Part shown: positions 1 through 47,190 of the stretch, piece after piece
How positions within the stretch are numbered: position 1 is the stretch's first letter
Layout of the letters: the number at the start of each line of letters is the position of its first letter
From: an uncultured Candidatus Marinamargulisbacteria bacterium
GTDB lineage: Bacteria; Margulisbacteria; Riflemargulisbacteria; GWF2-35-9
Length of the DNA stretch: 60,028 nucleotides
Assembly (NCBI GenBank): GCA_964358175.1
Contig: CAYHOI010000001.1
Span: 1 to 60,028, forward strand
Direction: 5' to 3'
The notes under the pieces: generated by a model
What the model was told of the DNA's origin: nothing
The model's input: only the letters and a program-made list of their open reading frames with translations
Databases searched by the model: none
Program-made: the position numbers and the translations under genes

Positions 1-3000
1 AATAATACGTCCTTAAACTATGGACTCCCATGGAAACCTAGCTTCTCGCAGTTGGGAGAAGGCACCAATGATATCACCTATGTGATCAGCGATAATGCCG
101 GCAATGTATCAAGCGCGTGGGTGTGTAAGATCCTGAGGGACAGCTTGCCGCCTACCTGGTCGCCACTATCGGCTCCAGCCTCCTTTAATCTCTGGTATCG
201 CGTAACGCCGGATATGGTTACCATGGATATCGATTTTGCCGATCCGAGTATCGCGCATTCGGGTATTCAGCAGCTTGCGTATCGGGTGTCGAACAATGGG
301 GGGCTGTCGCTGTCAGTCTGGAAAACGATTACCAGTGGTGTAATCCTGGACAAGTATACGAAGGATTGGCTGGTTGACTGGAGCCTTTTGGGCAATGGCA
401 CCAATGATATTCTGGTTGGGGTGCTGGATCGGGCTGGCAATGGGGCGACCTACACAGTTCGCTCAATCCTGAAAGATACCCAAAAGCCGTCATTCAATTA
501 TACGGCAGGTGTCGGGTACAACAAATGGTATCATTCCATCCCCCAAAATTTGCTTCAAATTCCCATTACACTTGAGGATGCGGGCGGTTCACTCCTTGCG
601 GGCTACTCGTGGGGATTTATAAATTCGACGACGGCCAACGAGTACAATGTGGACAACAACATTAACCAGTTGACAATGAGAACGACGATCAACTTGGATG
701 AGAACTGGATTCTCAATGGAACAAATAATATTTTTATCATCATAAGTGATAACGCGGGCAATCAAATCACGTTTAACGCATTTAATCTCTTAAATGATGA
801 TACCACTCCCGATTTTATGCCAATTCCGGTTGCCTCATATAATTATTGGACGAGAACAATCCCTTCATGGCTGAGCGTTCCGGTGACGCCACTTTTTACG
901 GATGCGGGAGGGTCACTTCTGGCGACCGTGAATATCACACTGATGACGACAGGCGCAACGACGACTTATTCTCTTGTACTGTCGACGAACCAAGTTGCCA
1001 CCTACGACACCCCATTTGTCCTGACATGGAACCTGCTTGGTAACGGTACAAATAATATTTATATAAAACTGATCGACGGTACGGGGACAGCCACAGAGAA
1101 TCGATGGTTTTTTGTACTGAAGGATGAGATACCTCCTCAGATAAAAGCACAGATAATCTCCACGGATGCAAGGTACATGAGCTGGCTCAATAGTTCCGGA
1201 AATCTCTTTAATGATTTAGCCATTAGCGTCACCGATAATGGCTATTCCCTGTTGGATGCTTTTGTGTGCGTGGTGAGCAATAATCGAAGCGATGCGTGGG
1301 TGAGTCCGCATGTTCTTGCGACACAGATCAATCGCACATCATACCCTGTTGACGGAGGGATTAACATTAACTGGGAAACCCTGAGTAACGGCACCAATGA
1401 CATCTTCTTTGTCGCGAGCGATAACGCGGGCTGGGTGGTGACGAGCTCGGTGTTTTTTCACATTCTCAAAGACGTGGTTCCTCCAATAATTTATGTGACG
1501 ATAAATACGGGTGCTACCAAAAACTTTGGCGCGTGGCACGCAACCGCGCCTCCTTGGCTGAACAGAGCTTCTGTGGATGCCTACGACACGGGTTACTCGA
1601 ATATCTTGTCTATTTCCTATCGGATTTTGAGGCAGAAGGATAATACGTACTCCCCGTGGCAGGCGGTGACCACGAATTACAAACAACCAACCTGGAACAG
1701 AGGCATTAGCGTAGACTGGCTTCTTCTTTTCAACGGAACCAATGATGTCTTTGTCGAGGTGAAAGACAGCGCGAACAATGTGAATAGCGTCACCTACTCG
1801 TTTTCGTTACTCAAAGATACCGTGAGTCCCAGCATCGTCATCGGGAGTGCCGTGAGCGGTTATACTACGCAAAACTGGTATCGCTCAGAGACTGCGCCTG
1901 CGTTTCTGCAAAGCGTGCAGGTAACGGTCTCGGACACGGGCAGTTCGAATATCAACCAGCTGGAATACGGGGTGAGCGCGAACGACGCGGGATGGAACGC
2001 GATCTCGTGGAATATTCTCGTGAGCGCGTCTCGCATTCAGACGACTGGAAACTGGGCGGTCTCTTGGGGCAGTCTGGCGAATGGGACGAATGATATTCTC
2101 GTTCGGGTCAGCGACAATGCGGGTTGGGTGGTCACCAGCGGGGTGCTGTTCAGGGTACTCAAAGATGATGTGGTTCCATCCTTTTCGTTGATAACACCCG
2201 TGGCCTCTTTCAATGCATGGTACAGGCAGGCACCCGACTGGTTCACATGGATCAGCGTAGACGCTTCGGATAGCGGTCATTCTACCATCGCCACGTTCAG
2301 CTATCAGGTCACTCGCCTGGTGGATGGTTCGGTGAGTGTCTGGCAAACCATTACCTCAAATTATCAAAAAAACATATATTCTGCCGGAGTCTCCCTTGAT
2401 TGGAATCTGCTTAGTAATGGAAGTAACGATATCACGTTTCGCGTGCAAGACCTTGCGGGAAACACGACACAAAACACGGCCTTCACGGTTCTCAAAGATG
2501 TGAACAGACCCAGCATCAACCTCGGAGAAACTTCTGTAGATGCCAAATTTTCTGCCTGGTATCGCCTGTCGCCGGCGTGGGCAGATTCAATACAGGTTAC
2601 CTTTAATGATACAGGTAGCTCCAATATCTCGGGGATTGATTACGGGGTGAGCTGGAATGGATCCCCTGCGGTCTGGCGCGTGATTACCTCAGCTTCTTCG
2701 GCAAGCCAGCACGGAGCTTGGAACCTTTTGTGGACAGATTTGCAGGACGGGACGAATGATGTTCTCGTTCGCGTGAGCGATAATGCGGGGTGGGTCGTCA
2801 CGAGCGCAGTCCTCTTTCGCGTAAAGAAGGATACAATTATTCCCGCAGTCACGCTGATTACGCCCTCAATGGCAGACGATACTGCAATGTGGCACAACCG
2901 TTCACCCGGCTGGCTCAGCTCGATAAAGGCACTTGTGACGGACGATGGCGGATCCGCCATCGCTACCGTTTCGTATCGTTTGGTTACCGGAGTCGGTGGC

Positions 3001-4180
3001 AGTGGCGGAGATCTTCTGTCTTCGAACGTCAATCAGACATCGTACGCAAAACCTTGGCAGCTCCTCTGGTCAGACCTGAGTGACGGGACGAATGATGTGT
3101 ACGTACGTGTGACGGATAACGCGTTTAACGCTGTTGATCAGTATGTGTTTCATGTGAAGAAGGACGTAACGGTTCCCAGCTATGATCTGTCTTTGGTCGC
3201 ACGCAGTTATCGAAATCCATTTGCGACAGTTCCTGAGGAAATGAGCCATATTACGATCAACTTCTATGACTGGGGCGGTGCCTTTATTCGCGATATCGAT
3301 TACGCGATTTCGATCAACACTATCCTGACCGGGCCGACAATCAACTGGTACCCGATTACCTCGAACTATAACGCGTCCACATTGGATGTGCCCTGGAAAA
3401 TTGACGGCAATCGGTTTCTTAATGGAACCAGCGATGTCTACGTGAGACTCAGCGATTATGCCGGAAATGCTGTGACGAGCGATGTTTGTTTCTCGATATT
3501 CAGGTCAGAGCCTGGGCTGACCTACAATTATGAGTTGTACGATCCGGGAGCGTACACAAGCTGGTATCGAGCCCCGCAGGAGTTTATGGCAAACACAATG
3601 ATTCGGTTCTACGATGTGTCCGGTCTCACGTTGCTAAAGACCCTTCAGTACGGTGTATCCGCGGATGGGCGTGTGACGTGGAATACGATCCGCGACAACG
3701 TAAACTACATGACCTATACTACGCCCTTTACGATCATGTGGGATACGCTCATGGAGGGTACCAATGATATTCTGATCTCATTCAACAACACCGATGGAGC
3801 TCAGATGACCTCCGGCGTACTCTTCACCTTGTTTAAGGATTCCCTCGCGCCGTTGATCGCGTTTGCCATACAGGCTCCAACAGGGTTCGCCAACGCCTCC
3901 AATCACGACTGGCTGAACCATCTCACGGTGAATGTCACCGAGAACGGGTATTCGGCTTTGAAGCGTCTGGAATGGGGGAAACGAACCCATTCGGCGTGGT
4001 ATTCCTACTCAACGATCCTCAGCGTCGCGGGGCAGAAGGTGGCATCGGCTCACTACGCAGTGCCGTGGGATCAGATGGAGGAGGCCTATAATGCCCTCAT
4101 TCTCGAGGCTGAGGACAATGCGGGCAATATCACGTCCGTGAATCTCTGCGTGGTCTCCCGCGATACAATCGCCCCCTATC
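1..4180 (+). repeat. block A: about 13 tandem ~112-aa HYR/Ig-like modules
   Basis: Each module ends with (N/D/E)G(T/S)(N/S)D(I/V)-x3-5-(V/L)xDxAGN-x12-18-(L/F)(K/R/N)Dx2-3P. An example is NGTNDILVRVSDNAGWVVTSGVLFRVLKDDVVPS at nt 2080-2181. The last boundary is SRDTIAPYP at ~4155-4181. Copies are clearly diverged at the DNA level, including synonymous sites. Confidence 0.6.
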
Positions 4181-28100: not shown

Positions 28101-31100
28101 ACCGATTTATATCCATCGGTTTGTCCCCGAGGAACCTGTAGTGTCATTCTTTAGTCCTTCGAATGGAAGCCGACAATATACCAATTCATTAAACGTTTTG
28201 GTGTCTTCAGATATGTCCCTGTCGCATCAGGATTATCTGTGGCTGATTACGGAGAATAGTACGCCTCCGACCCTTATGGATCCGAAGTGGACGACTCTAA
28301 ATGGGGAGTATCGCCTCGCAGAGGGTTCAGATGGCACCAGAAACTTATGGGTCTGGGTAAAGAATAGTTATGGGATGACTCTGCGGGCTGTTACTGCAAA
28401 TATTATGTTGGATCGTTCTTTGCCTACTGGGAACGTCAAAGTGGGACGAAGCGAGATTTGGTTTGGCAAGCAAACGTTCCTTCTGGAAACGAGTAAATTA
28501 CTGCCCGTGCCCCCTCAAGTCCTTCTCACCTTTGCTAGGGACGGAGTGACTAAATCTATGAATGTGAGTGGGGCGAACGGGAAATATCGAGCTGATTTCA
28601 CCTTTAAGGAAGATTTTGGTGAAGGGTATGTGACGATTCAGATTCAGATGGAAGACTATGCGGGGAATGTGTCTACCGTGAATATTGGCGCAACCAGGGT
28701 GCTCTTGAAGGTGATGTATCCCCACAGCCCGATTTTGAAAATAATGGATTTGGCGACTCATCAGTTGGATTATACGAACAACTTATCCAAAATCTATTGG
28801 AATTTGCTGGTGACCAAAAATAACTCAGAAGAAACATGGACTGACCAAAAATGGTACATCATCGACGATGTGACGGCCAATCGGCCTGAAGGCTACGATC
28901 CGAGATGGCTGGAATATTCTCCACAGCAAGGGGTTACCCTGCCTTCCGCATCCTATTTCAGGATGTATGGTGAGCAGGGCATCGAAACGAGTTCGTATAA
29001 TCCCCCAAAAGGCTATTTGAACAAGATGTTTTATGCATGGTTTAAAAATAGCGGAGGGTATGTAAGCCTACTGCCTTCAGTCGCAAGGATCACCGTTGAT
29101 GTGACTGCGCCCTCGGCGACCCTGAACTACCTCCCTTTACAGGGGACGACCGATGCACAGCTCAAGTTAACTCTTAACACTAGCGAGGGGGTAACGGTTT
29201 ACGGTTCAAAAATGATTCATTCAGATGGGGTGAATTCTTTTGAATTCATTGGATCTGGCAACCTATGGCTGACAACTAATTTGGGGGTGCGACCCTCAAA
29301 ACATCCTTTATTCTCAACTGTTATTCAGGATTATGCGGGGAATCAGACTACATTAGATGTTGATCTTCAACCCTATTTACAGATTTCAAGTATTAATTGT
29401 GTTACCCAGAGTGTTTCTCGGCTGGATAAAGATATCACTCTTCTTAGAATAGAAGTTTCTGCGTCAACTAAAGTGATTCTTTACGGACTTGTTATTCAAA
29501 AAACAGGAGATGATGGACACCGGACGCTGAGGACAATGCGATTGGTGAGTGGAAATACAGTGCTCAGCACTGCAACGTTCCCCAAAGACCAAATGACTGC
29601 GGAATTTGTCATGAAGGGTGGCGGTATGGTGATCACTCGACCCACTGTGCTAACCGTACGAGCTGATATTGAGGCGTCGGCAATGGAGCCGTTTGCTCTC
29701 AACGTTGATCGAAGTGGCTGGAAGGTGGATACCTATAACATTGCCTTAGAAGAGAACTTGCCATTTACTTCTGCCCCTTTCCAGATTATGGATGGAAGTA
29801 ATGAGCTGAGAATCTATCTTGAAGATAATTCTTGGCGTACTCAAACGGTGAAAGTCCATCAAAACGACAGAGATATTCTTCTTGGACAGTTCAATATGGA
29901 AAGTTACCCCTATAGTACGATGCTTAAGATGATTACCTTAAATATATCTGGAAATCTTACGACTCCTGGTTTGAGCGGGGTTCGGTTGATTCGAGATAGC
30001 AATTACAATGGGGTTTATGATCAACTCGAGGATGATCAGGTTGGCAATAGTCAAGCACAAGCACCAAAGCCAAGCACTTTATTGCTTAAGGGTCTTGATG
30101 AGAAAGTATCGCAAGTAGCGCAGAGGTATTTTATTGTGGGGGATATAGCATTAAGCGCGACCGTAAATAATTCTTTTCAGTTTAAAATTGCATCGAAAGC
30201 GGATGTTCAGCTGGGAGACAATCAATTTGTGAACGAGCGTGCACTGCCAATGTTGACCCAGACGAACACTGTGCTTCCTTATGTTCCAAAGGTCAGCCTT
30301 TCCGTTCGGAATGCTGTGAGCGAAGATGTTTTCCAGAGTCAAACCATTCAGCCCTATAGTTACTTGAGGTTTGCGACCGATTATCGTACGAGTAGTTTGA
30401 AAGAATTGGTCTTTAGAGTGTCCTGTAACATGTCTTATGACAATGTCGATATAATCAAGCTATTTATTGTAACTTCAGACAGTGCTGTGATTAATGTCTC
30501 GGATGAGCAATCTGCCAACACTCTAAAAGATCAAGATAAAATTAAAATGACCATGACGAATGAATTTCTCGTGACATCGAGTGGACGTTATTTGGCCGTT
30601 GGAATGAAGTTGAAGCCGGGTACTTCAACCGGACAGTTGCAATTGGTACTGCTTGCCGAAGGTATATCCTTCAATGAATCGGGCAAAAATGAGAATACAA
30701 GCAATCTTGACTTGGGACTTCTCAATATTGTGGATCTGCACCAGCCGATTTTTGATGGGGTGGATGTTCCACGGTATATCAATATAGCGGATCATGTGTC
30801 CTACAATTTTGATGTTGGCGTAAGTGCAGATCATACTGTGGTTGCTACCCTTGAAGTAGCGATTGGAAGTGATAGTGGACAGGAGAATGTAATGGCATGG
30901 ACTGCCTATGCTTTCAACCCACCAGCAGCCTATTTTGTGGACAAGGCCGGGGTGATGAATGGGCTTGCCTTGCAGCACAATCAATCGTATTTCATGAAAA
31001 TCCGTGCGAAGAGTTTTGATTCAGCAGGAGACTATGTGTCGACGCAGAAAATTCTGCCCTTCAAGGTGGATATGACGCCCCCGGTTGTGGCTCAAGGCGC

Positions 31101-31725
31101 AACGGTCTATGTCAATCAGACCGTTGGAGGTGCGCAATCGGCGTCTGCTCAGGGAGTTCGCAATACGCAGTATTTGACCTGGCCGGCGGCCAAGGATGAT
31201 GAGTCAGGGCTGAAGCGGTATGAAATTCAGTGGCAGAAGGGCACAAGCCTCAAGTGGGAGGTTCTGGAGTCGAATACGACGCAAAATTATTATAAACAGT
31301 CTAGCCTGGATCCTGCTCTGCGTTACAGGTACCGTGTAAGGGCTGAGAATAATGCAGGGAGCTACACGGATTGGCTTGTGTCATCGTATACGCAAGTGCA
31401 GAAGCCCAAAGAAGTCATCTACAATGTTTCGTTCTTTCCCAATCCTGTAAAGTCGCAGGAGCAGGATGGAACCCTCTATTATGAGCTGAATCAAGATGCG
31501 AATGTGACTATTAAGATTTACGATGCGCTTGGGCATTTTGTGCGCGAGATTAATTGTGTGTCTGGAAAAATGGGAGGCATGAGTTCCGAACCAAATCGAG
31601 TAATTTGGGGAGGCACCAATTATAAGGGCGAGAAAGTAGCAAAGGGGGGATACATTGTCGTCCTCTCTGCGGATAAAGAAGGGCCACAGAATATCGTCAA
31701 GATTACGGCAGGAATTCTGCGCTAA
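1..31725 (+). CDS. giant repetitive, predicted all-beta extracellular/surface protein, 5'-partial (at least 10,574 aa inside the window)
   Basis: Frame +1 has no stop from nt 1 (aat aat acg tcc tta aac tat gga ...) to TAA 31723-31725. Codons 1-17 (NNTSLNYGLPWKPSFSQ) already fit the repeat consensus that precedes each NGTND motif, so the TTG at 52 in the ORF track is an artefact of the window edge. The sequence holds dozens of modules ending D-x-AGN ... V-x-V-D-x-x-P-P and is very poor in Cys. No catalytic motif such as HExxH was seen. The C-terminus is a sorting-type beta-sandwich. Confidence 0.85.
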   Translation, partial: NNTSLNYGLPWKPSFSQLGEGTNDITYVISDNAGNVSSAWVCKILRDSLPPTWSPLSAPASFNLWYRVTPDMVTMDIDFADPSIAHSGIQQLAYRVSNNGGLSLSVWKTITSGVILDKYTKDWLVDWSLLGNGTNDILVGVLDRAGNGATYTVRSILKDTQKPSFNYTAGVGYNKWYHSIPQNLLQIPITLEDAGGSLLAGYSWGFINSTTANEYNVDNNINQLTMRTTINLDENWILNGTNNIFIIISDNAGNQITFNAFNLLNDDTTPDFMPIPVASYNYWTRTIPSWLSVPVTPLFTDAGGSLLATVNITLMTTGATTTYSLVLSTNQVATYDTPFVLTWNLLGNGTNNIYIKLIDGTGTATENRWFFVLKDEIPPQIKAQIISTDARYMSWLNSSGNLFNDLAISVTDNGYSLLDAFVCVVSNNRSDAWVSPHVLATQINRTSYPVDGGININWETLSNGTNDIFFVASDNAGWVVTSSVFFHILKDVVPPIIYVTINTGATKNFGAWHATAPPWLNRASVDAYDTGYSNILSISYRILRQKDNTYSPWQAVTTNYKQPTWNRGISVDWLLLFNGTNDVFVEVKDSANNVNSVTYSFSLLKDTVSPSIVIGSAVSGYTTQNWYRSETAPAFLQSVQVTVSDTGSSNINQLEYGVSANDAGWNAISWNILVSASRIQTTGNWAVSWGSLANGTNDILVRVSDNAGWVVTSGVLFRVLKDDVVPSFSLITPVASFNAWYRQAPDWFTWISVDASDSGHSTIATFSYQVTRLVDGSVSVWQTITSNYQKNIYSAGVSLDWNLLSNGSNDITFRVQDLAGNTTQNTAFTVLKDVNRPSINLGETSVDAKFSAWYRLSPAWADSIQVTFNDTGSSNISGIDYGVSWNGSPAVWRVITSASSASQHGAWNLLWTDLQDGTNDVLVRVSDNAGWVVTSAVLFRVKKDTIIPAVTLITPSMADDTAMWHNRSPGWLSSIKALVTDDGGSAIATVSYRLVTGVGGSGGDLLSSNVNQTSYAKPWQLLWSDLSDGTNDVYVRVTDNAFNAVDQYVFHVKKDVTVPSYDLSLVARSYRNPFATVPEEMSHITINFYDWGGAFIRDIDYAISINTILTGPTINWYPITSNYNASTLDVPWKIDGNRFLNGTSDVYVRLSDYAGNAVTSDVCFSIFRSEPGLTYNYELYDPGAYTSWYRAPQEFMANTMIRFYDVSGLTLLKTLQYGVSADGRVTWNTIRDNVNYMTYTTPFTIMWDTLMEGTNDILISFNNTDGAQMTSGVLFTLFKDSLAPLIAFAIQAPTGFANASNHDWLNHLTVNVTENGYSALKRLEWGKRTHSAWYSYSTILSVAGQKVASAHYAVPWDQMEEAYNALILEAEDNAGNITSVNLCVVSRDTIAPYPVMYDVENSVLYRDFITSQNQTEAISWVDRGDIGIAGVEKWLYYWGQDPNGTSATQHESASLPPFTVPAGTAGNGIYRLRVSPVDRAGNQGEWQPVYKYTYDSQVPARWYYTDHDGRYWYRSLTDLSASIGWFGRDDWGFAGVKRYHVLLTTNANVNPVGDPSSKVTTDMLVAWPTPSLQSEVRHKASFYWTIAIEDYAGNIGVNVAGTTYDRYSLSSFGLDLQPPLLDAINAGSPYDLRSAYTGLALPRGEWTSVDQFSIDVTPSAQDDASGVSYYQFNVGVSTPDSAQNYSYSYQMGRKFTSMQLQPMEQGNISKVYVRAIDWVNAISTWSVALATINYDGLPPNKAGHFLIGDGEAYSTGNSLIISWDEAFDEGGSGVTTYDVVAYAMSPAGVIVATESFSLPSVSRQIKIGALGDSPKIPLLNDEYIYFARLLVWDRVGWNSAKKYGSNRMDYAQQTNVIQIDRKSPFSVKNPREDARTNDLVTWKWGQPADNQGGSTPGSGVGQYQIRMYWKDPVTGLKADYFSTFNVADTTYEYPIAPGMEFGAEIRAIDNVGNLADNWMAIREGVLDSTPPNNPPVAISRDRSLYSIWAGDGTGNDIKVPAYTTGNVNQFQFIWMPGEDDVVGVKGYYVAWGKNLVTPNTYTGYTFTTSRTISLSIAETVTATYRLWLAATDYYNNTANWMEAYRYTYNGLATKNTIRPLAPVLSTRYISANNQGVTVTLTTKNASGVTLGSFDHYEVRLYRAFSEAFVTQNQFGSSANVKSDIFLLNSVALSPNTQYFIKYRAYYGISNFTEWSYASPYLFYDDVRPPTVNSVLLEEGEDIVTRTSGIAVRFYAARDSNDDNASYAGSGIDHYETVLFDSPSPGEQYSSGAVIPLLSPAYTNTGVKLTLTEPLADGHQYCLKVRAVDRAGNAGPWSETSNELMVDIRAPDVPVGITNSYVPTDPSGYTNVFSYIWSWTPATDAGGGGGGYTSGVRQYQYYYGYSMQRDTGAENTLVQTNATAVQEWAGYNAQGLRNNQSTGWRAKSTSQGGSGDVKYFYVRAQDWAGNWSDWSASPATTKVDVFAPAHPIPNPSMNTVVGTTSMTFSWSPVSDIGGGGLKYYHATLYDKNKLQVASSRNIPATRTSVTFTGLATDNAYVLKMDAEDVFGEKIPAYPYFSQGMVPRWDADLLSAWVMVDATPPAPPNYIRRSVWAFNTNTADDPPGQIMYSAILDSVGSAEFGNNFRADYGSNYCYYGANKEMSDYLSSYEDKINANLIYYRNGSVSDAELGAISYSLGRGDYTGAQLRQLLVDMAYLKGEAHTDQSGANPRYAISDYYVNNYRPTLNIPNQGGYYYNGVFQNSEINTVQTYVNGRLSGSEVMNALKLSDFGSILSDGSSFRVTNFTPGMNYDDFRRSLISSQPKLNGVVLVGDLVGISVNRTPTDGVAVFDRLKSKGYLDVAGVINPLYDFTQGDQVSGVKKTTWNITNADISNRLKTIQSDYHSSALASSVLKKLYTDMGAQYDELRMELNTMLTSNRRVANPNNLTTTLADIVSRSHGYVWFWGRAADDGLGGSGVSTWEVQVKEDGQNEASRSLSLPYDQPWLNCAGSYTSFPGFNGSPALSVSASMRLRAMDNAGNAGEWSDWRGVTANGLRVWYQAPPGNRSVYDTGSLLGIKNGRSDTQSLWAQNRELNLLWDGSQMWGPDLFYDYSSSMGQSDLPQGRTKYRFHDVNDSTISGGTNRMYVMAYNAENEGTNELVYSLDYDALPPDRPSISTPLATQNVPNSYTFSWSGGADPNPGSGLKSYHVQIVDADGNVAYERTDFTGDSYLFTEGKSGKKYTLRVNAVDNAGLSGEIAMTNAWVVVDKDAPPAPDMLWVNTGKVSNGSMWSSSANYNVWRWVLPQDTGRSGLASYNIAINESNKGWLEVTSGMIDKTTYLSNAPIFAKIKFSDKAGNISGEKNSSYPLKIDTEAPLIDLSVADIRELNGMVNDVWQTSTRSVIFSWEQANKNAASDALSGVVALEYYWGPEADKTSGFAINTFDKKVTPVGQMPAGAETIYFFKMRSQDNAGNWSPMATLYTTKYDNFVKSIEDVRQSVTTNRYSNQLTQNYNWGNVSDLTGIQSFVFSFYVSGNLLDSMDDGVLTRDVTIPYDSAIYDSSSSRFMASVMLDNQFSSQDVYVRMRVRDTNGNVSIAGNKSEKMWLDFTAPNAVDVPTIDNGSIIHVTSRNFGVTWNWTAPKDIGGSGLSSYDTKLQVYSDAQAVSINPNVPSTVNRAVYPQVFTDNVYAFSISAHDRAGNTGNISFGQLFVVDTVAPSVNLQLRNACSAYGWNRPFKENIYYLIRGNTVGLSIYMKDKASEQIGNVGSGIASMKLELYELATPDTGEFALASVPTFSLSANSICTFGIPMTSSVIHTSQNTQLWRYALISDDIVISDSYLSSQQFVDPTSNATANFIQMTLSRNWTGFFRLSLSVKDFANNETSQNYYLYYDPVPPSIDMGFSGMIFLSTNAMVYIRRLDGGQSVIQEDASNGSKYADERSRMTFFPIAGYQLYEVSGANQQKLGLNITGSRYYPYCELEQGAWGSGFMVLSTNAKFYVRVFDELSEEIGFFQGGGNQPNRSWDAAGDILISSESGRINVNGYQLPFAKYGLIDDFYQNEATNRLTHNPERNVTFLDYARECLEVSLNADVVDGTRLVLGVADMAGNVTTVSSLPVYRSSPIILVTADASLQYPVPHSYNRRYGTQYSWGDYTYGTQRVSASFYVDTVNVYVSANMTVSSEVHSLRDGLQQPFFFAQNGVEINPYSGLSATGYSVSGKSTMNYVYWGQFSVVTLSTGAQTPLLSGQGKYISINVPNRYGDSDVSIRVSYSVDEDYPSLTVNTFFVYPAIPIVNPTVDNRLGAMSMTTNRVAITSDGVDEISGIFPSSFFVTQLSESLHSLKEVLFIRATNSLSTPNWISANNEGSNGVWLTDNAGVGLSDTPFLHRLRQNGLITTDWQAGFEGLSGTVTLGVNVMDVIWRDKAGNYSGTTNLAIVYDRTPPELLAVSLNADWVDAATTVSMVFEKPYQSIQGGTPMLPNDPINSLHAFYMDGYQGLRLYFRISDNAKVNGWLSADAADVNTVRVQWTTNNTYWHSYTVNGGSFNVYQPSGDFGVFKITQSHEIEARRPALNNGEAFNYCFFVSASMIISDNALFGSGIPEIVTQNQAYAFRIDLLDYAGNASRATGSYTVNIDNDRSNRSVELTISGDSTVNTANAKIVTQNSHGAGLLNSELYTPQDCDPFAAPNEKIYNDGQIFAKLGITVNTLVGREYALVWTTMNPVVQPLNKPSYVYYAYGKIGWATSNSNFVGTGNFAFDFFNPTPDIGRTGLSSGLPYYATNNALLTLPTTDTVIHLFVAPMGVAGNPINIDSGTWATITIDLSAPILSGNSAPFYLHDLAGTTLNALKGLYVSRSVIEGDCPVAPSFDPMAHLDFLGLGSYFFQDVHRSTHVQFGRGDYVDLQSGMPTNNTFLRKKVYRADVAGSNGYLFEQLSSERYSSIANMIDTDLAAFGEGLYRFDLYTSNKAGLVTKSSFAVVMDGTPPTINQFAFEVSVSQDYEPVSVNYYGSQNIRISWSASDNMGVSSNGQLTGGDSSGIWFYELRFENLTTPSVKGYVFSSRNTTITWDQGLGLAFVPTKAISTTLNWRDVVGIIKLGKVRFTLNAYDYALLTISRSHEVYIDSGNEVQSMVSLADPQEDNVDNQQDGESPSESSQGASGYFDQTSINLVIQFLPTAFDTTQLNRASPQRTHLPIEVFLVTPGSVAAVPISTSLIVVTYSNSANLDVQGAPTANLANYRLTLSVVDTKEFVKTGGYEGPVTLSYKIVDGAGYRSAMTSIFTRVTIDMSAPTGSYGFHEGLKFIGSDNTYFLYGVSENFAFATTTSGTKVSANYEDAHSGLSSKPYRFMVSLNSLAGAYQGVDKDMGWQARTSSPFDLLSSEISTSNKWYAVKLRVRNQTGVVAYNTLNVILDTQTPNIYFFAVLQETASNEYARSAENFVGKRATTINWGASDNVFSESFGSIFGVTGNSHQGIRQYQLSFATPNVRSISADIFPAITTNIVTVGYTEFVIGEGVVRYVIRAFDFANNETVVTKGPYYYDWTNTLHNQVGQILAVTDNTDEDGDGISPVSANGVSGYFDQPTISIQLILSTTADDATQLNYLSDAHIPVEVFAVTNAVMTRIAASQIWATYDHKLLIDAHPNLAAYSIAITINLADIVSRDRYQGGVTLFFKLIDGVGNLSLTTNTPLRLTVDLSAPTGQMRVLSGVTFQGSTSNFAQYGVSTNMLFTSVNAVAMDHQYSDAHSGLAISWNKVTVIRYPLEGGVGTAVNRDWSDVSQVSINSVQAMISNNLFLVESDILNGVGEVAHSATWNVVFDTVPPTINAEDFMLTFNVLSGGYAPSSVNYLQSTTLDLVWVATDNVFASSPNLFAVLSHRGVYQYRLSFSKDGQTFTSVSANMMPAVNNHLYISPNELLGTIGEGRVYFKLEAVDFAGNWSSRNIGPYFMDLQNTLNEQIVRIEPVTANNDSMPDYFQKSPFDASGKNGYFDRVSVDFIIHLSPNASDLTQLSYLEGSYIPLEVYVVTDGVKKARVWDSDIHATYNRDVLPSLNATSNLASVPIAVTINFSNYVGTSNYNGRIQFYYKIIDGAGNVSATTNTDMAFLDVTVDMTAPVGNSRFGEGFTFVGSGNTFGLNGVSDDVAFARQLSNLVISMDYQDAESGLAISSNYFSVWEYSLTHNYVTSGNRGWTNVPTLNLSDMGTITQNRWYKVVGFAANNTGVITKATTRNVIIDLVDPVVVTFSLSGELQSGSDYGSSSLNFAQVQTLNFVWTASDNMFSDLTIGEFKQKNHQGISLYAFLYKVNGIDWVTLNGSITPTAQNEFQVDKTTVNSLFSGKKAFFKLVAYDFAMNQSSKEYGPVFFDSGTVLEQAISACILEDKTDADDLGGSPFDVSGQGYFDQSVLKMRLQLMDTANDVTQLSTLPSGNIPLEVMATFYGSNRGSLYFSKVFPGNLQKLSATYNYGRLPTIDAANNLGGITIDILTLNLFDQIEGSGWNGGVGLSFKLIDGAGNLSTDWSREFRVTVDVTPPTVALLWGTRDYFVTGNDETFDQFGFGKSSQYPVKFPYVGFSRQIQSLRLSGNAQDQDSGLPTGAYRYDVTQFAFSNLSSTVNSDSTGWTATPTLNLSERFTGMIAPNFAYRVDLHARNQVGRTSISTNLIILDDVAPTFQAMNRSEPVGGDYSATSKDLYSLQDVLLTWRASDNFYAENAGGEGNFFNARDHQGVYFYQVWYEKNGVTASITENMLAYADNDFVVSKGYIRQSIGEGIVTFSIRATDFAGNTSVTTSRLRFDWSNTINLQIADMISAMDATNSDEDLWDRRQSDKWGDFVDDVSPFDASDGQLGIFDQTVIPVHIRIAENGYDISQISELTPNHIPFEVYISHDGQVLTINHDRIWVTYDRKTDIESPSNIASRNYWLTVDVGEWVGVEPLHRGAFQLLVKVIDGAGNLSSFDTKEFRLTVDRTPPTSDASAPFYFNEPIGWVTYNPLFLDGYNGVAFINTTHFSAQMVSFNDAESGLSEQPYWMKLAGVGFKDENENQADKGSVQITWQTQEAFTGVSLSELGYQGLTGGGVFDLFFKVRNNAGIVTYNLNYLCIDLLKPVLVTFQRTEHIDVDQDGYLPEEDTYYNKQAIWLTWDAYDNLGYRGDQPAEVVTGDPDAIWFYTLSWTCRSLTGNMVSSGDILTPGMRLDAKQWFLPTSGVSVIDDVSYGISISDNLKEGNVEFILGAVDYALNVTTKSMQVVFDWTNRATASSNFYFVADQTDSSTPADGVIPEAGYFDQTTMTVVITLDHVIELTQLSTRNLKVNYSTGNSGSELSVMNPEDYRYSIEGVDGKFTVTIDFNLAPYLMTLNVVEGQPVRSGVVSLNITLLDRAGNMPSVPANMGCRVTVDMQSPSLESSGVFDVYLYPDKDSMGDGIDPENGYLDDSLPYITVTLNSRVTSNGAAQMDQCLNVRLFDDSRIQKASANTFELISENRSLMIVVTMDKGGWSVPLQADQQIATLPSENSYTYEFYLRDKAGNILSRVVTLNYDRTPPVLRDRAFVYKVEPAKGEDHGGDGIDPLAGYYDSPFATVNIQLNIPNWTVGYGNSLASSYNDGVSESYHGSGIRKRPLFVRLESLTPLNIPGVYASATYPGGHFGAELTANLFAVGIPLTRDAARIIVMMADRAGNVVTLNDTNRVTMDDRMPFGISFNLVDTRDVSGIGIFPVYGFFNHQVITFNIEGSQVDRGLSGLRGNRFVVSTANGIWKNYTYQSRYVDPELKEQNEPGTDSPLIGSLRLPTGTVTVWAGLVDRAGNVGVISQPIVVDMTPPSINLFSLDFATNNKGLRGDIDSHGDGVDPYYGYWDEPSVNIEVVSLSYAEDYRRSNDVFVKDYRYTHVPVMHDFGLGWVTTENNIGQSSRVFREIYVPEGNSQPIVVYVADLAGNVVSRQILVTVDQTVPAGFAQIVLDVDTDSQGDGVDPLYGFFDNVEVGLVISENTADSSGFRVNRYLIRSNSARTLSYNVHDYKNKDKSESLHRPIDLEQGDQVAFGQDSSQIFNFKPASEDEKQIEIVAGISDCAGNVREVTASITVDTQPPTGDFQGKLITDTDSALDGIDPLEGYYDSLAVSVLLSSNVVDNIGMRTNRYFIKTGDAGFLTSYNAYPYDGNHYFSEGADVPGIGKFGSATGSITGITYNAQGVYEVHVAVADGAGNLLEKTVRVTIDLTQPSSVPIVRLAPYRAGGNRVEADEGWYGSNEVDFYAEFRNGATDELSGLRDVPYVARVVTPGTNQISWLLEQRDPAFKQIWVPEDRSITKNSSLFVGLVDRAGNVASASVPVHVDLTPPTGNLSLIIRPDSKNDASQLIPESGYYNDNTMDLQWQMVSDYLGLKSRPFRVKANEMPWSDSLNVTSLEDFKVNNEGTVTIQILVADHAGNILIETASIIVDTQVPTGMVVSVLSDNTDSGQDGLLPEAGWYDDPLISLSWTAATDNGSGLRDKPYQTKSEVSNYDLQQSTTTATVEAKVKYTSYEDRVSSKLSVRAVDRAGNILEVMASINVDQRVPEPYTFTVKPDSQENPTYNPSAGWYNDHTLELEWSESLDFGGMRTSGSVLARVASDIPWVTLNENVSQTNNDTFWVSEDVSARTLVTRMVDHAGNVRTQASNGFNVDLTPPTFSQLALVGDVDVHGVALAAGWYDDQMVRWKWFGADNGGLFDAPYRYHNLVSPNSLWSDWNGQTGVEILTTWGIPQFFEVELRDQAGNHITRIEKVNVAGFAPSGNVNYFLSINVTEVTPGWTITPNVGWYASHTLNVVITTNYLNLLEQQKLTEDLTYYVYNTNGQTQPIYQGIPTFSKVICGESGRAGLTVVYGILLKSGLRIEGRQIIFVDTQPPQDFSATLRTCTDHGGDGVSPESGWVDTMNFHIDLLAPKDGGILRAQPYRYRFAVPTGSWSDYQSSEKIENLQISENRAYIVEVSAVDCAGNIATVSVCVTVDTMPPTFNGLEIILIPATSNQGIEPVPGWYRNDSLSGSVTWNRVTADDLRQNFLYVRTNSAKTVGNFSALTFDAKVVPADILPINIDVFIADHAGNVARSAKVIYSKVTVPGNSYVILKRDGNHNPWFKPEEGYYGRLSVDVEWAEPIGGGLRGRPYQIQSSLSSSRNWTASQDGKAYNGYAVSEGVQEIIVRAVDKAANIATFSTLVSVDVTAPEPIVLSLVQDLDNDSDGAVPLQGFDDDGVITVTFNPVFDNVALRDKPYCSLLGDLEDIPSGTVLSLSREGYATLTTSVEGIQTVSVVAVDRAGNYRISIVTVNVERTVSEFTVSINRTEFPVSASLIVSVSMTKSISRVPGVVLSVAGVDYGLAVVRSEISQNVFIGTLDVGVVVSDGIGILRFSVINDAGKIATQSIGMVLPIYIHRFVPEEPVVSFFSPSNGSRQYTNSLNVLVSSDMSLSHQDYLWLITENSTPPTLMDPKWTTLNGEYRLAEGSDGTRNLWVWVKNSYGMTLRAVTANIMLDRSLPTGNVKVGRSEIWFGKQTFLLETSKLLPVPPQVLLTFARDGVTKSMNVSGANGKYRADFTFKEDFGEGYVTIQIQMEDYAGNVSTVNIGATRVLLKVMYPHSPILKIMDLATHQLDYTNNLSKIYWNLLVTKNNSEETWTDQKWYIIDDVTANRPEGYDPRWLEYSPQQGVTLPSASYFRMYGEQGIETSSYNPPKGYLNKMFYAWFKNSGGYVSLLPSVARITVDVTAPSATLNYLPLQGTTDAQLKLTLNTSEGVTVYGSKMIHSDGVNSFEFIGSGNLWLTTNLGVRPSKHPLFSTVIQDYAGNQTTLDVDLQPYLQISSINCVTQSVSRLDKDITLLRIEVSASTKVILYGLVIQKTGDDGHRTLRTMRLVSGNTVLSTATFPKDQMTAEFVMKGGGMVITRPTVLTVRADIEASAMEPFALNVDRSGWKVDTYNIALEENLPFTSAPFQIMDGSNELRIYLEDNSWRTQTVKVHQNDRDILLGQFNMESYPYSTMLKMITLNISGNLTTPGLSGVRLIRDSNYNGVYDQLEDDQVGNSQAQAPKPSTLLLKGLDEKVSQVAQRYFIVGDIALSATVNNSFQFKIASKADVQLGDNQFVNERALPMLTQTNTVLPYVPKVSLSVRNAVSEDVFQSQTIQPYSYLRFATDYRTSSLKELVFRVSCNMSYDNVDIIKLFIVTSDSAVINVSDEQSANTLKDQDKIKMTMTNEFLVTSSGRYLAVGMKLKPGTSTGQLQLVLLAEGISFNESGKNENTSNLDLGLLNIVDLHQPIFDGVDVPRYINIADHVSYNFDVGVSADHTVVATLEVAIGSDSGQENVMAWTAYAFNPPAAYFVDKAGVMNGLALQHNQSYFMKIRAKSFDSAGDYVSTQKILPFKVDMTPPVVAQGATVYVNQTVGGAQSASAQGVRNTQYLTWPAAKDDESGLKRYEIQWQKGTSLKWEVLESNTTQNYYKQSSLDPALRYRYRVRAENNAGSYTDWLVSSYTQVQKPKEVIYNVSFFPNPVKSQEQDGTLYYELNQDANVTIKIYDALGHFVREINCVSGKMGGMSSEPNRVIWGGTNYKGEKVAKGGYIVVLSADKEGPQNIVKITAGILR
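4181..11100 (+). repeat. block B: about 16 FN3-like modules carrying a W..x..D..SG(V/L/I)xxY signature
   Basis: Recurrent signatures include DDASGVSYYQFNV, EGGSGVTTYDVVAY, PGSGVGQYQIRMYW, AGSGIDHYETVLFD, YTSGVRQYQYYYGY, GGGGLKYYHATLYD, PGSGLKSYHVQIVD, GRSGLASYNIAINE and GGSGLSSYDTKLQV. Each is followed by (R/A)A(I/V/Q)D.AGN..(E/D)W and a P-rich boundary. Confidence 0.55.
7800..8820 (+). other. unique ~330-aa non-repeat insert inside block B
   Basis: It lies between WAFNTNTADDPPGQIMYSAIL and HGYVWFWGRAADDGLGGSGVSTWEVQV. The sequence is Y/N/S/G-rich and includes the only clearly helix-like stretch seen in the protein (ADISNRLKTIQSDYHSSALASSVLKKLYTDMGAQYDELRMELNTMLTSNRR). I found no copy elsewhere in the ORF. 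Confidence 0.45.
11101..14879 (+). other. block C: ~1,260-aa weakly periodic central region
   Basis: D.AGN / D..PP boundaries still occur (KDFANNETSQNYYLYYDPVPPS, VADMAGNVTT, RDKAGNYSGTTNLAIVYDRTPPE, LLDYAGNASRATGSYTVNIDND), but spacing is irregular and the intervening sequence is not repeated. The one exception is a small internal echo (FLSTNAMVYIRRLDG / VLSTNAKFYVRVFDE). Confidence 0.4.
14880..22110 (+). repeat. block D: five complete and one partial ~1.22-1.31-kb super-repeats (~410-435 aa each, 4-5 subdomains)
   Basis: Unit boundaries (V-I-x-D-x-x-x-P) lie at ~14880, 16180, 17400, 18640, 19930 and 21235. Each unit contains W.ASDN.F...HQG(I/V).(Y/L)Y, then (S/N/Q)GYFDQ...TQL(N/S)...IP(I/L/F)EV, then (K/L)(I/L)IDGAGN(L/V)S...TVD(M/L/V)(S/T)(A/P)PT, then DA(H/E)SGL(S/A). 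The GYFDQ motif sits at nt ~15413, 16660, 17884, 19118, 20458 and 21758. Confidence 0.65.
22111..27830 (+). repeat. block E: about 16 tandem ~120-aa modules with an N-terminal acidic loop and a (G/A)(Y/W/F)(Y/F/W)D motif
   Basis: Loop examples are DKDSMGDGIDPENGYLD, GEDHGGDGIDPLAGYYD, DIDSHGDGVDPYYGYWD, DTDSQGDGVDPLYGFFD, DTDSALDGIDPLEGYYD, DNTDSGQDGLLPEAGWYD, CTDHGGDGVSPESGWVD and DLDNDSDGAVPLQGFDD. Each module closes with VDRAGN / ADHAGN ... V(T/I/H)VD(L/T/Q)(T/Q)PP. Confidence 0.6.
27831..29390 (+). repeat. block F: alternating A-B-A-B-A arrangement of two module types
   Basis: Type-B modules are PVVSFFSPSNGSRQYTNSLNVLV...YLWLITENSTPPTLMDPKW...GTRNLWVWVKNSYG and PILKIMDLATHQLDYTNNLSKIYW...KWYIIDDVTANRPEGYDPRWLEY...KMFYAWFKNSGG. 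Type-A modules end in NDAGKIAT, EDYAGNVST and QDYAGNQTT. Confidence 0.5.
29391..30740 (+). repeat. block G: three ~145-aa modules of a further, unnamed beta-sandwich type
   Basis: All three share one pattern. A condition-like strand is followed by a set-label strand: DKDITLLRIEVSASTKVILYGLVIQKTGD, DRDILLGQFNMESYPYSTMLKMITLNISGNLTTPGLSGVRLIRDSNYNGVYD and QPYSYLRFATDYRTSSLKELVFRVSCNMSYDNVDIIKLFIVTSD. Confidence 0.4.
30741..31416 (+). other. two FN3-like domains preceding the C-terminal domain
   Basis: The second domain is canonical FN3: YLTWPAAKDDESGLKRYEIQWQKGTSLKWEVLESNTTQNYYKQSSLDPALRYRYRVRAENNAGSYTDW. Confidence 0.6.
31417..31722 (+). other. C-terminal FlgD-Ig-like / T9SS type-A-like sorting domain (~100 aa)
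   Basis: The sequence is IYNVSFFPNPVKSQEQDGTLYYELNQDANVTIKIYDALGHFVREINCVSGKMGGMSSEPNRVIWGGTNYKGEKVAKGGYIVVLSADKEGPQNIVKITAGILR. It follows the known pattern (F/Y)PNP...L...V.I.IYD..G..V......G.....W.G.N..G..V..G.Y at the extreme C-terminus. Confidence 0.6.
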
Positions 31726-33279: not shown

Positions 33280-33332
33280 CTTTTCTGCGATTGTTGCGGT
33301 TCGGTCTCTAATCGATTATGATGAAGGAGACA

Positions 33333-34618: not shown

Positions 34619-34629
34619 GGAGCGGTCGC

Positions 34630-45797: not shown

Positions 45798-46160
45798 TTA
45801 GATCGAGAGAGACTGTTGCACTTTATCTAACAATTCAGTTGCCCTGAACGGTTTTGAGAAGTGATCATTGAAGCCTTGTCGAATAACTTCCTGTTTATCC
45901 CCTTCGTAGGCTTTTGCGGTAAGCGCAATGATGTAGGAATCCTTGTTTAGTGAAATTTGTCTAATTTCCTTTAAAGTGTCGTAGCCATCCTTGCCCTCCA
46001 TCATCAAATCCAAAAAAATAAGGGGGAATGACTGTTCACGGCAAAGATCAATAGCGGAGTTCCCATTGTTTGCAGTGGTGACTTGATAGCCATCTATTTC
46101 TAATATAGCTTGAACAAGCGTTAGGATATCTTGTTTATCATCAACCACAAGAATGTTCAT
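45798..46160 (-). CDS. single-domain response regulator (CheY-like REC)
   Basis: MNILVVDDKQD...LIFLDLMMEGKDG...ALTAKA...KPF. The start overlaps the cheV stop by 4 nt. Confidence 0.8.
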   Translation of the reverse strand: MNILVVDDKQDILTLVQAILEIDGYQVTTANNGNSAIDLCREQSFPLIFLDLMMEGKDGYDTLKEIRQISLNKDSYIIALTAKAYEGDKQEVIRQGFNDHFSKPFRATELLDKVQQSLSI

Positions 46161-47179: not shown

Positions 47180-47190
47180 AGCTCAGCATA

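What the first reader, a model, noticed from the sequence alone, without database searches (positions are those of the whole stretch)
1..31725. One uninterrupted ORF of more than 31.7 kb (at least 10,574 codons), still open at the 5' window edge
Frame +1 contains no stop codon from nt 1 to 31722. Random sequence gives a stop about every 21 codons, so the frame is clearly maintained by selection. The first 17 codons already belong to a repeat module, so the true gene is longer and the N-terminus and signal peptide are not visible. The product has hundreds of beta-strand-like D-x-AGN / V-x-V-D-x-x-PP module boundaries and almost no Cys. I recognise no catalytic motif, and it ends in a C-terminal sorting-type domain. 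This suggests a micrometre-scale cell-surface fibre, adhesin or sheath component. Proteins above 10,000 aa are extremely rare in bacteria, and their roles (attachment to other cells, predation, episymbiosis, surface layers) are largely uncharacterised. This is the strongest candidate for the undescribed system in the window.
Basis: partly seen in the sequence, partly recalled or inferred. Interest (0 to 1): 0.9.

Follow-up and report, generated by a model that had tools for sequence, protein, structure and literature searches.

The report
Giant tandem-Ig surface fibre gene
This is a real gene of at least 10,574 codons, cut off at its 5' end, from a groundwater Margulisbacteria genome; it encodes a long chain of immunoglobulin-like modules ending in a secretion/anchor-type domain, which makes it an unusually large example of a known kind of bacterial surface fibre, and a related genome keeps the same modules in the same order.

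Summary
Frame +1 is open from nt 1 to the stop at 31723-31725 (10,574 codons; about 527 stops expected by chance). The ORF enters the window part-way through a module. It is not an assembly artefact. A genome assembled independently from Rifle groundwater (Candidatus Margulisbacteria GWF2_35_9) carries the positional ortholog upstream of the same neighbouring genes. That ortholog is collinear with window aa 4020-10574: 42% identity and no gap longer than 31 aa. In GenBank it is annotated as only 3,252 aa because scaffold gaps interrupt it. The protein contains at least 57 diverged beta-sandwich modules. A confident model of two modules most resembles the extender rods of giant adhesins (SiiE and a large adhesion protein). 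The C-terminus holds a cohesin/CBM-like unit, an FN3 domain and a FlgD_ig domain. The FlgD_ig domain resembles T9SS sorting domains but scores below their curated cut-offs. No catalytic family was detected. The best reading is a C-terminally anchored surface fibre about 0.3-0.4 µm long, like a fibrillar adhesin. The N-terminus, the export route and the function remain untested. It is a new member of a known kind, of moderate interest.

The parts
1..31725 (+). Giant ORF, truncated at the 5' window edge: 10,574 codons plus the stop codon.
   Evidence: Open frame. NCBI MAG contig JBBTGH010000028.1 matches nt 23811-27755 at 100%. Collinear with the Rifle ortholog from nt 12058 onward.
1..4155 (+). 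Array of 13 type-A modules of about 113 aa each (aa 1-1385). The first module is cut by the window edge. Consensus: W..P.W...V.F.D.G.S.L...Y..S...W..L..GTN..VR..D.AGN...F.V.KD..P.
   Evidence: Profile hits. AF2 model of aa 491-719 with pLDDT 91.7 shows two tandem beta-sandwiches. Best PDB fold matches are adhesin extender repeats 6xi3 and SiiE 2yn5.
4156..14877 (+). Heterogeneous region (aa 1386-4959). It has 9 recognisable Ig-like modules, two weak FN3 hits, and about 2,500 aa of segments with no family or PDB match.
14878..21219 (+). Five super-repeats of about 404-434 aa (aa 4960-7073), each made of three different modules.
   Evidence: Off-diagonal self-matches at about 410 aa. Module hits. 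The third module type was found 5 times by jackhmmer.
21220..27807 (+). Array of 18 tandem modules of 105-148 aa (aa 7074-9269). This is the block best conserved with the ortholog (up to 51% identity).
   Evidence: The 100%-identical MAG fragment P0003 covers aa 7938-9252.
27808..29685 (+). Diverged modules (aa 9270-9895). Only the last-strand motif is detectable.
29686..30555 (+). 'Unit X' (aa 9896-10185): a single copy of a jelly-roll unit of about 180-200 aa with no Pfam family. The same unit is repeated up to 20 times in other large proteins of uncultured bacteria.
   Evidence: AF2 model with pLDDT 88. Fold matches are the N-terminal CBM of GH33 sialidases, TTHA1873 and cohesins.
30556..31068 (+). 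Unassigned segment (aa 10186-10356). It is conserved with the ortholog.
31069..31389 (+). FN3 domain (aa 10357-10463).
   Evidence: Pfam fn3 at 28.8 bits. Matches to titin and contactin FN3 domains in the PDB.
31390..31722 (+). C-terminal domain (aa 10464-10574). The FlgD_ig match covers aa 10485-10560, and the domain resembles T9SS C-terminal sorting domains.
   Evidence: FlgD_ig 36.1 bits against cut-off 27. CHU_C 18.0 and Por_Secre_tail 17.9 bits, both against cut-off 27. TIGR04183 18.2 bits against 23, and the PorZ C-terminus 33.7 bits. PorU CTD 6za2_A residues 1055-1141, E=0.0023.

Best explanation
The ORF is the 3' 31.7 kb of a single chromosomal gene of a groundwater member of Candidatus Margulisbacteria (Margulisiibacteriota, related to Riflemargulisbacteria). 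The product is a giant protein of the fibrillar-adhesin type. It is one polypeptide built from tens of tandem, strongly diverged Ig/FN3-like beta-sandwich modules that form an extended stalk. The stalk is followed by a cohesin/CBM-like jelly-roll unit, an FN3 domain and a C-terminal beta-sandwich of the FlgD_ig / T9SS-CTD superfamily. The proposed mechanism is inferred, not shown. The protein is exported with the help of an N-terminal signal that lies outside the window. The C-terminal cassette keeps it at the outer surface. The stalk, about 0.3-0.4 µm for the visible part, holds the unseen N-terminal end away from the cell so that it can contact surfaces or other cells. Two lineages whose housekeeping proteins have diverged to 49-81% identity have kept module number and order unchanged, which suggests that length and architecture are themselves under selection. 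Shown here: ORF continuity, module architecture, fold class, orthology and collinearity, and taxon. Inferred: extracellular location, anchoring by the CTD, rod-like shape, and an adhesive role.
For: The frame is open. The repeats are diverged, so repeat collapse is unlikely. 53 modules match one profile and 4 further modules match a second type. The two-module model is confident (pLDDT 91.7, pTM 0.84). Its top PDB fold matches are the extender region of a large adhesion protein (6xi3), the giant adhesin SiiE (2yn5), RbmA and FN3 tandems. The C-terminal cassette consists of unit X with a cohesin/CBM-like fold, FN3, and FlgD_ig with PorU/PorZ-CTD similarity. No hydrophobic transmembrane-like segment was found. 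No catalytic family was found. The positional ortholog P0012/OGI11147.1 in Candidatus Margulisbacteria GWF2_35_9 lies upstream of the same genes (hexapeptide transferase, CheD, CheR, HDOD, FliM, YmdB, RNase Y, RecA and onward). It is split only by an 8-N scaffold gap. It is collinear over 6,367 aligned residues at 42.3% identity, with a longest gap of 31 aa. A MAG fragment 100% identical to the window is labelled Candidatus Margulisiibacteriota. The best RecA match among GTDB representatives is a Riflemargulisbacteria MAG at 78%, with conserved synteny.
Against: The N-terminus is not in the window, so no signal peptide, adhesive head or total length is known. The C-terminal domain is below the curated cut-offs of both T9SS sorting-domain families. 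As far as I know, T9SS has not been reported outside the FCB group and Bacteroidota, and a search of the held papers for Margulisbacteria together with type IX secretion found nothing. About 2,500-3,000 aa have no detectable family and could hide other functions. Contiguity of nt 1-12057 has no independent support. GC3 in the 5' two-thirds is well above that of neighbouring genes and is unexplained. There are no expression data.
Confidence: 0.62

Rival explanations
1. The protein is a structural coat, sheath or S-layer-like component rather than an adhesin. In this reading the chain of Ig-like modules lies along or around the cell and provides envelope structure or spacing, with no specific ligand binding.
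For: No known adhesive domain was found in 10,574 aa. Module number is strictly conserved between lineages, which would fit a structural ruler. One of the fold matches is an S-layer protein, Deinococcus HPI 8cka (rank 42).
Against: Top fold matches are adhesin extenders. The C-terminal cassette looks like a single-point anchor. S-layer proteins are usually abundant and much shorter. No SLH or similar lattice-forming domain was detected.
Confidence: 0.17
2. The protein is a multifunctional giant protein of the kind proposed for Omnitrophota. In this reading the stalk carries enzymatic or toxin domains in the missing N-terminal part or in the unclassified segments, used for attacking or feeding on other cells.
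For: Surveys place Margulisbacteria among the phyla rich in very large genes. About 2,500-3,000 aa are unclassified. Unit X has a CBM/cohesin-like fold. The gene extends upstream by an unknown amount.
Against: No catalytic, dockerin, SecA-like or protease family was found in any visible part. No secretion-system or carbohydrate-import genes lie in the 28 kb downstream. The unclassified segments mostly end in the same last-strand motif as the modules.
Confidence: 0.1
3. The ORF is an assembly artefact or a decaying pseudogene. In this reading the long frame results from mis-joined repeat blocks or from several genes whose stops were lost in this assembly, at least in the 5' 12 kb.
For: The gene is fragmented in short-read assemblies of the same site at about 3x coverage. 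GC3 reaches 0.74 in nt 3300-10500 against about 0.45 in neighbouring genes. Nothing independent covers nt 1-12057.
Against: An open frame of 10,574 codons cannot arise by chance. Repeats are at most 45% identical and there are no DNA repeats to mis-join. Nt 12058-31722 are collinear with an ortholog assembled independently from another continent. GC3 changes smoothly with no step and remains raised inside the verified part. Type-A arrays of the same composition occur on three other contigs of the same MAG.
Confidence: 0.04
4. The protein is a T1SS-exported RTX-type giant adhesin of the LapA, SiiE or MpIBP class.
For: The stalk modules resemble the extender repeats of this class in fold.
Against: No RTX/HemolysinCabind repeats or T1SS-type C-terminus were found. 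The C-terminus is FN3 plus FlgD_ig. No ABC transporter, MFP or TolC genes lie downstream.
Confidence: 0.03

Closest known systems
[quoted passage not shown]
   Same: A single very long chain with a stalk of tandem Ig-like (E-set) domains and a terminal anchor-type domain. Big_3_2 and Por_Secre_tail-type anchors are among the parts used to define this class.
   Different: No adhesive domain has been identified, and the N-terminus is missing. Most modules fall below the per-domain significance of existing Pfam stalk families. The size is far above typical FA-like proteins.
SiiE (Salmonella, 53 BIg domains) and the extender regions of large RTX adhesins (PDB 2yn5, 6xi3)
   Same: These are the best structural matches to the modelled two-module unit (E about 7e-07 to 4e-06). 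They are rod-like stalks made of tens of tandem beta-sandwiches.
   Different: Sequence identity is 12-14% and TM-score only 0.38-0.45 over two domains. Those proteins use T1SS with C-terminal RTX signals, whereas this one ends in FN3 plus FlgD_ig. This protein is at least twice as long.
T9SS cargo proteins with C-terminal sorting domains, such as the gliding adhesin SprB of Flavobacterium johnsoniae (about 6,500 aa; recalled from my own knowledge) and the PorU and PorZ CTDs
   Same: A beta-sandwich at the extreme C-terminus with detectable similarity to Por_Secre_tail, CHU_C and the PorU/PorZ C-termini. SprB is likewise a huge repetitive surface filament.
   Different: Scores are below the curated cut-offs of the T9SS CTD models. 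The host phylum is not known to have a T9SS. The machinery could not be looked for here.
Giant proteins of Omnitrophota and other phyla surveyed by West-Roberts et al. 2023 (bioRxiv 10.1101/2023.11.21.568195)
   Same: Bacterial ORFs above 10,000 aa from uncultured groundwater lineages. That paper names Margulisbacteria among the phyla with a high incidence of very large genes and proposes adhesion roles.
   Different: Those proteins carry many enzymatic, dockerin and SecA-like domains and lie near T2SS genes. This protein is an almost pure beta-sandwich array with no such domains or neighbours.
OGI11147.1, 'hypothetical protein A2Y40_00730', Candidatus Margulisbacteria bacterium GWF2_35_9
   Same: A true positional ortholog: same flanking genes, same module order, 42% identity over 6,367 residues, same C-terminal cassette.
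   Different: It is annotated as 3,252 aa because scaffold gaps (8 N and 109 N) interrupt the ORF, and the part upstream of those gaps has no gene call on record. Its GC3 is flat and equal to the genome background, unlike the window gene.

Membership tests
Fibrillar adhesin-like proteins (PMC8286594) | Stalk-like region of tandem repeated (Ig-like) domains | tested here: met
   At least 57 modules. Tandem beta-sandwich model with pLDDT 91.7. Adhesin-extender fold matches.
Fibrillar adhesin-like proteins (PMC8286594) | Adhesive region, usually at a terminus | tested here: inconclusive
   No known adhesive family was found in the visible 10,574 aa. The N-terminus lies outside the window. The CBM/cohesin-like unit X is near the presumed anchor end.
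Fibrillar adhesin-like proteins (PMC8286594) | Surface anchoring motif or domain | tested here: inconclusive
   FlgD_ig scores above its cut-off. Por_Secre_tail and CHU_C score below theirs. No LPxTG, SLH or LysM hits.
Fibrillar adhesin-like proteins (PMC8286594) | Extracellular location | not testable with these tools
   The signal peptide region is missing. No transmembrane-like segment was found. Location is inferred from domain types only.
T9SS cargo (type A CTD TIGR04183/PF18962; type B CTD PF13585) | C-terminal domain reaching the curated score of a T9SS CTD model | tested here: not met
   PF18962 17.9 bits and PF13585 18.0 bits against cut-off 27. TIGR04183 18.2 bits against 23. The ortholog's PF18962 score is 21.9.
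T9SS cargo | T9SS core machinery (PorV, SprA/Sov, PorU, GldKLMN) encoded in the genome | not testable with these tools
   Only 60 kb of the genome is available, and none of these genes is among the window's genes.
T9SS cargo | N-terminal Sec signal peptide | not testable with these tools
   The ORF is open at nt 1.
T1SS RTX giant adhesins (LapA/SiiE/MpIBP type) | C-terminal RTX nonapeptide repeats and T1SS secretion signal | tested here: not met
   No RTX family hit. The C-terminus is FN3 plus FlgD_ig.
T1SS RTX giant adhesins (LapA/SiiE/MpIBP type) | Adjacent T1SS genes (ABC transporter, MFP, TolC) | tested here: not met
   The 28 kb downstream encode chemotaxis, flagellar and housekeeping genes only. 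Upstream is unknown.
Omnitrophota-type giant proteins (West-Roberts 2023) | Many enzymatic, dockerin or SecA-like domains and proximity to T2SS or carbohydrate-import genes | tested here: not met
Pfam bacterial Ig-like families Big_13 / Big_3_2 / Big_3_3 | Score at or above the family gathering threshold | tested here: inconclusive
   Summed scores for 1,000-aa chunks exceed the cut-offs (for example Big_13 51.2 against 27), but no single stretch is significant on its own. The chunk aa 5001-6000 has no hit at all.

The most novel reading that the evidence does not exclude
The gene defines a family of surface fibres restricted to one lineage of Margulisbacteria. Each would be well over 10,000 aa, and possibly about 14,000 aa if the three extra type-A fragments from the same MAG belong to it. 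Module number has been held fixed through deep divergence. The fibre would be exported or anchored through a T9SS-like C-terminal domain in a phylum with no known T9SS, implying either an unrecognised secretion/attachment route or a wider distribution of T9SS-type sorting. It would mediate attachment to other cells. From my own knowledge, other Margulisbacteria (Candidatus Termititenax) live attached to other microbes.
Probability: 0.15. Interest if true: 0.7.

Novelty: new member of a known kind. Interest (0 to 1): 0.45.

Why it matters
Bacterial proteins above 10,000 aa are rare and almost none has been characterised. This one is now anchored by a collinear ortholog, which removes the usual doubt about assembly. 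The comparison also shows that a very long Ig-module array can keep every module in place while the sequence drifts to about 42% identity. That contrasts with the common view that repeat numbers in adhesins change quickly, and it suggests selection on fibre length. The work also shows that the public ortholog is badly under-annotated because of scaffold gaps, so surveys of giant genes that rely on annotated proteins will undercount them. The T9SS-like C-terminal domain in a sister lineage of Cyanobacteria raises a specific question about how such cargo is exported there, and that question can be tested. The protein still fits a described class, giant fibrillar adhesin-like proteins, and nothing here points to a new mechanism.

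Tried and rejected
(1) Extending the gene upstream failed by every available route. A peptide-pattern scan of GTDB genomes with aa 1-400 found nothing. An exact-DNA search of JGI metagenomes with the first 42 nt found nothing. Alignments A1 and A2 of type-A modules were too diverged for pattern design. The window/Rifle alignment A3 found no relatives in JGI metagenomes. The Rifle contig has 22.8 kb more upstream, but no gene is on record there to look up, probably because scaffold gaps prevented gene calls.
(2) An exact look-up of CheR found no contig.
(3) Word-indexed homology searches with three parts of the protein returned only fragments of the same population, three type-A fragments from the same MAG, and a few distant relatives.
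(4) Pfam at E<=1 on ten unassigned segments gave nothing meaningful. PDB sequence searches of four segments likewise gave nothing meaningful. hhalign against the module profile detected only the last-strand motif.
(5) No terminator or promoter consensus was found after the stop codon.
(6) Repeat collapse or mis-join was rejected as an explanation of the ORF.
(7) A sharp chimeric junction was rejected as the cause of the GC3 anomaly, because the profile is smooth.
(8) Literature searches linking Margulisbacteria to T9SS found nothing, and a search for FlgD_ig together with T9SS also found nothing.
Full report
**Observation.**
Frame +1 of the window contains no stop from nt 1 to the stop codon at 31723-31725, giving 10,574 sense codons. 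The next-longest open stretch in any of the six frames is 788 aa. Inside nt 1-31725 the other five frames carry 229-598 stops. Base composition predicts about 527 stops in 10,574 codons, so log10 P is about -235. The ORF is open at the window edge. Its first 42 residues align to positions 57-91 of a 95-position module profile, so the gene continues upstream. Cys is 0.26%. "Hundreds" is not.

**Is it an assembly artefact?**
- There are no DNA tandem repeats, and the internal protein repeats share at most about 45% identity. There is therefore nothing for an assembler to collapse or mis-join.
- A 3,945-nt contig of NCBI MAG GCA_038041485.1 (JBBTGH010000028.1, Candidatus Margulisiibacteriota) is 100% identical to nt 23811-27755.
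- ENA contigs from Hainich groundwater well H43 match the downstream genes at 99.9%.
- The decisive evidence came from an exhaustive HMMER search with the C-terminal unique region. It found P0012 (OGI11147.1, 3,252 aa, "hypothetical protein", Candidatus Margulisbacteria bacterium GWF2_35_9) at 33% identity over all 791 query residues.
- The P0012 contig carries the same downstream genes in the same order: hexapeptide transferase, CheD, CheR, HDOD, FliM, then YmdB, RNase Y, RecA, CinA, PgsA, a MiaB-like gene and MetK on the other strand.
- Upstream of P0012 the frame is open to the end of the fetched locus. It is separated from P0012 only by an 8-N scaffold gap.
- The concatenated 6,582 aa are collinear with window aa about 4020-10574. 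The diagonal offset stays between 3987 and 4053. In a global alignment 6,367 positions align at 42.3% identity, and the longest gap is 31 aa.
- The neighbouring housekeeping proteins are 49-81% identical.
- Two assemblies from different continents therefore agree module for module over 19.7 kb. No whole module has been gained or lost.
- The first 12 kb of the window have no such independent support.

**Organism and context.**
The best RecA relative among GTDB species representatives is a Candidatus Riflemargulisbacteria MAG at 78%, with the next hits at 66% or below. Seven flanking genes are syntenic with it. Together with the two NCBI labels above, the host is a groundwater Margulisbacteria. 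The remaining 28 kb of the window are ordinary chromosome:
- chemotaxis and flagellar genes (CheD, CheR, HDOD, FliM, a CheW-receiver protein, CheY, CheA);
- RpoD, RNase Y, RecA, MetK, MraY and MurF.

There are no tRNAs and no genes of any known secretion system.

**Anatomy.**
An iterated profile recognises 53 copies of a 105-150-aa module, covering about 59% of the protein. This count is stable when the ortholog is added. A second profile adds four more modules. The blocks are:
- aa 1-1385: 13 type-A modules of about 113 aa.
- aa 1386-4959: a heterogeneous stretch.
- aa 4960-7073: five super-repeats of about 415 aa, each with three different modules.
- aa 7074-9269: 18 tandem modules.
- aa 9270 onward: the C-terminal region, described below.

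Pfam gives only summed, weak matches to Big_13, Big_3_2, Big_3_3 and fn3, and nothing for aa 5001-6000. About 2,500-3,000 aa have no Pfam, NCBIfam or PDB sequence match. Profile-profile comparison detects only the module's last-strand motif in most of these segments. No catalytic family appears anywhere. No transmembrane-like hydrophobic segment exists.

**Fold evidence.**
An AlphaFold2 model of two consecutive type-A modules was built on 48 aligned module pairs from the window and its relatives. It is confident (pLDDT 91.7, pTM 0.84) and shows two beta-sandwiches in tandem. Its best PDB matches are the tetra-tandem extender repeat of a large adhesion protein (6xi3), the giant adhesin SiiE (2yn5/2yn3), RbmA and FN3 tandems. 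Sequence identity is 12-14% and TM-score about 0.4, so this shows fold class and arrangement, not family membership.

**C-terminal cassette.**
- Residues 9896-10185 ("unit X") occur once here but up to 20 times in other large proteins from uncultured bacteria. One of these, P0016, also ends in FlgD_ig.
- The unit X model (pLDDT 88) resembles the N-terminal carbohydrate-binding module of GH33 sialidases, TTHA1873 and cohesins.
- An FN3 domain follows.
- The last about 110 residues match Pfam FlgD_ig at 36 bits against a cut-off of 27.
- The same residues give sub-threshold matches to both T9SS sorting-domain families: Por_Secre_tail 17.9, CHU_C 18.0, TIGR04183 18.2.
- They also match the C-termini of PorZ and PorU.

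**How long is the gene?**
Three further contigs of the same Hainich MAG are wall-to-wall ORF: P0005 (1,392 aa), P0006 (1,033 aa) and P0007 (884 aa). All are made of type-A modules, are about 30% identical to the window's array and to one another, and do not map inside the window. The P0005 contig has the same coverage (about 3x) and the same codon-position GC as the window's 5' end. These contigs are either the missing upstream part, which would bring the gene to about 13,900 aa, or a paralogous giant gene. On the Rifle contig, window aa 1 would fall near position 10,775, which leaves room for about 3,600 more residues upstream. This is inference.

**Mechanism (best explanation, confidence about 0.6).**
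The protein is a C-terminally anchored surface protein of the fibrillar-adhesin type. A stalk of tens of beta-sandwich modules holds the unseen N-terminal end away from the cell. I recall about 3.3-4.4 nm per Ig-like domain from work on SiiE and titin. At most about 88 modules fit in 10,574 aa, so the visible part would span roughly 0.3-0.4 µm. That is sub-micrometre rather than micrometre scale. The fixed module count between lineages suggests selection on length. Export route, surface location and ligand are all inferred.

**Rival explanations.**
- A structural coat or sheath rather than an adhesin (0.17).
- A multifunctional giant protein of the Omnitrophota type, with activities hidden in the unseen or unclassified parts (0.10).
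- An artefact or pseudogene, at least in the 5' 12 kb (0.04).
- A T1SS RTX adhesin (0.03), disfavoured because there are no RTX repeats and no T1SS genes.

**Comparison with the literature.**
West-Roberts et al. 2023 (bioRxiv 10.1101/2023.11.21.568195) list Margulisbacteria among the non-PVC phyla with a high incidence of very large genes. PMC11573180 lists the phylum among those enriched in proteins above 5,000 aa and notes that these proteins have no COG assignment. Neither paper characterises them. The FA-like class of PMC8286594 fits this protein on stalk and single-chain criteria. The anchor and adhesive-domain criteria are inconclusive. The main genomic description of Riflemargulisbacteria (PMC6349859) does not mention surface proteins, flagella or secretion.

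**Unexplained.**
GC3 of the window gene varies smoothly between 0.34 and 0.74. It is mostly 0.52-0.74 over nt 1-24000, against 0.42-0.52 in 14 neighbouring genes. The Rifle ortholog shows no such effect: its GC3 is 0.25-0.31, against 0.30 in its neighbours. The feature is therefore specific to this lineage. It persists inside the part verified by collinearity and has no step that would mark a chimeric join. Gene conversion among modules, acquisition of module blocks, and codon selection all remain possible.

**Verdict.**
The ORF is real, and its reading as a giant repetitive surface protein is well supported. It is a new, very large member of a known kind and not a new kind of system. Interest is moderate (0.45). 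The most novel reading still open is a length-locked fibre specific to one Margulisbacteria lineage, using a T9SS-like sorting domain in a phylum without known T9SS, for attachment to other cells. I give that reading a probability of about 0.15.

Noticed in passing
window 1-24000 (against 24000-60028): Third-codon-position GC of the giant ORF varies smoothly between 0.34 and 0.74 and is mostly well above the 0.42-0.52 of the neighbouring genes. The Rifle ortholog has flat GC3 equal to its genome background, so the effect is lineage-specific and unexplained.
   Followed up: partly
L086 2675-2783 and 9944-9951 (GenBank MFRH01000022.1, Candidatus Margulisbacteria GWF2_35_9): The ortholog is annotated as a 3,252-aa hypothetical protein only because scaffold gaps (109 N and 8 N) interrupt a much longer open frame. 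No gene is on record for the 10 kb upstream of it. Surveys based on annotated proteins would miss this giant gene.
   Followed up: yes
window 29686-30555; proteins P0013, P0016, P0018, P0021, P0028 and others: A beta-jelly-roll unit of about 180-200 aa with no Pfam family occurs once in the giant protein and up to 20 times in tandem in other large proteins of uncultured bacteria. Some of those also end in FlgD_ig. The fold resembles sialidase CBMs and cohesins. It looks like an undescribed repeat domain family.
   Followed up: partly
Hainich assembly ERZ1292635 / MAG GCA_038041485.1: P0005 (L085), P0006, P0007: Three contigs that are entirely ORF (1,392, 1,033 and 884 aa) consist of the same type-A modules but do not map to the window. 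They are either the missing upstream part of this gene or a second giant gene in the same genome.
   Followed up: partly
window 32611-33279 (+): A 222-aa ORF with a DnaJ (J) domain sits between the hexapeptide transferase and CheD. It has no counterpart at this position in the Rifle genome.
   Followed up: no
window 33318-36496 and 46157-52318: Two groups of chemotaxis and flagellar genes (CheD, CheR, HDOD, FliM; a CheW-receiver protein, CheY, CheA, then RpoD) flank the recA region. This indicates a motile, chemotactic Margulisbacteria lineage.
   Followed up: no
window 8760-11126 (-), 21175-22734 (-), 16628-17812 (-): Long antisense open frames (788, 519 and 394 aa) lie inside the giant gene. 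One antisense frame has only 229 stops against more than 500 in the other two. This is most likely a by-product of the codon composition of the sense strand, not of genes.
   Followed up: no
L084 4485-18261 (JGI 3300010429, Ga0116241_10003780): A distant relative with type-A-like modules (about 25% identity) is called as three consecutive ORFs (1,857, 1,356 and 1,458 aa) that run off the contig. It starts after an Rrf2-family regulator gene and has a non-repeat N-terminal region of about 400 aa, which may indicate what such proteins carry at the distal end.
   Followed up: partly
window 47862-48557 (-): A 231-aa ORF between Sua5/YrdC and a CheY-like receiver has no Pfam match.
   Followed up: no
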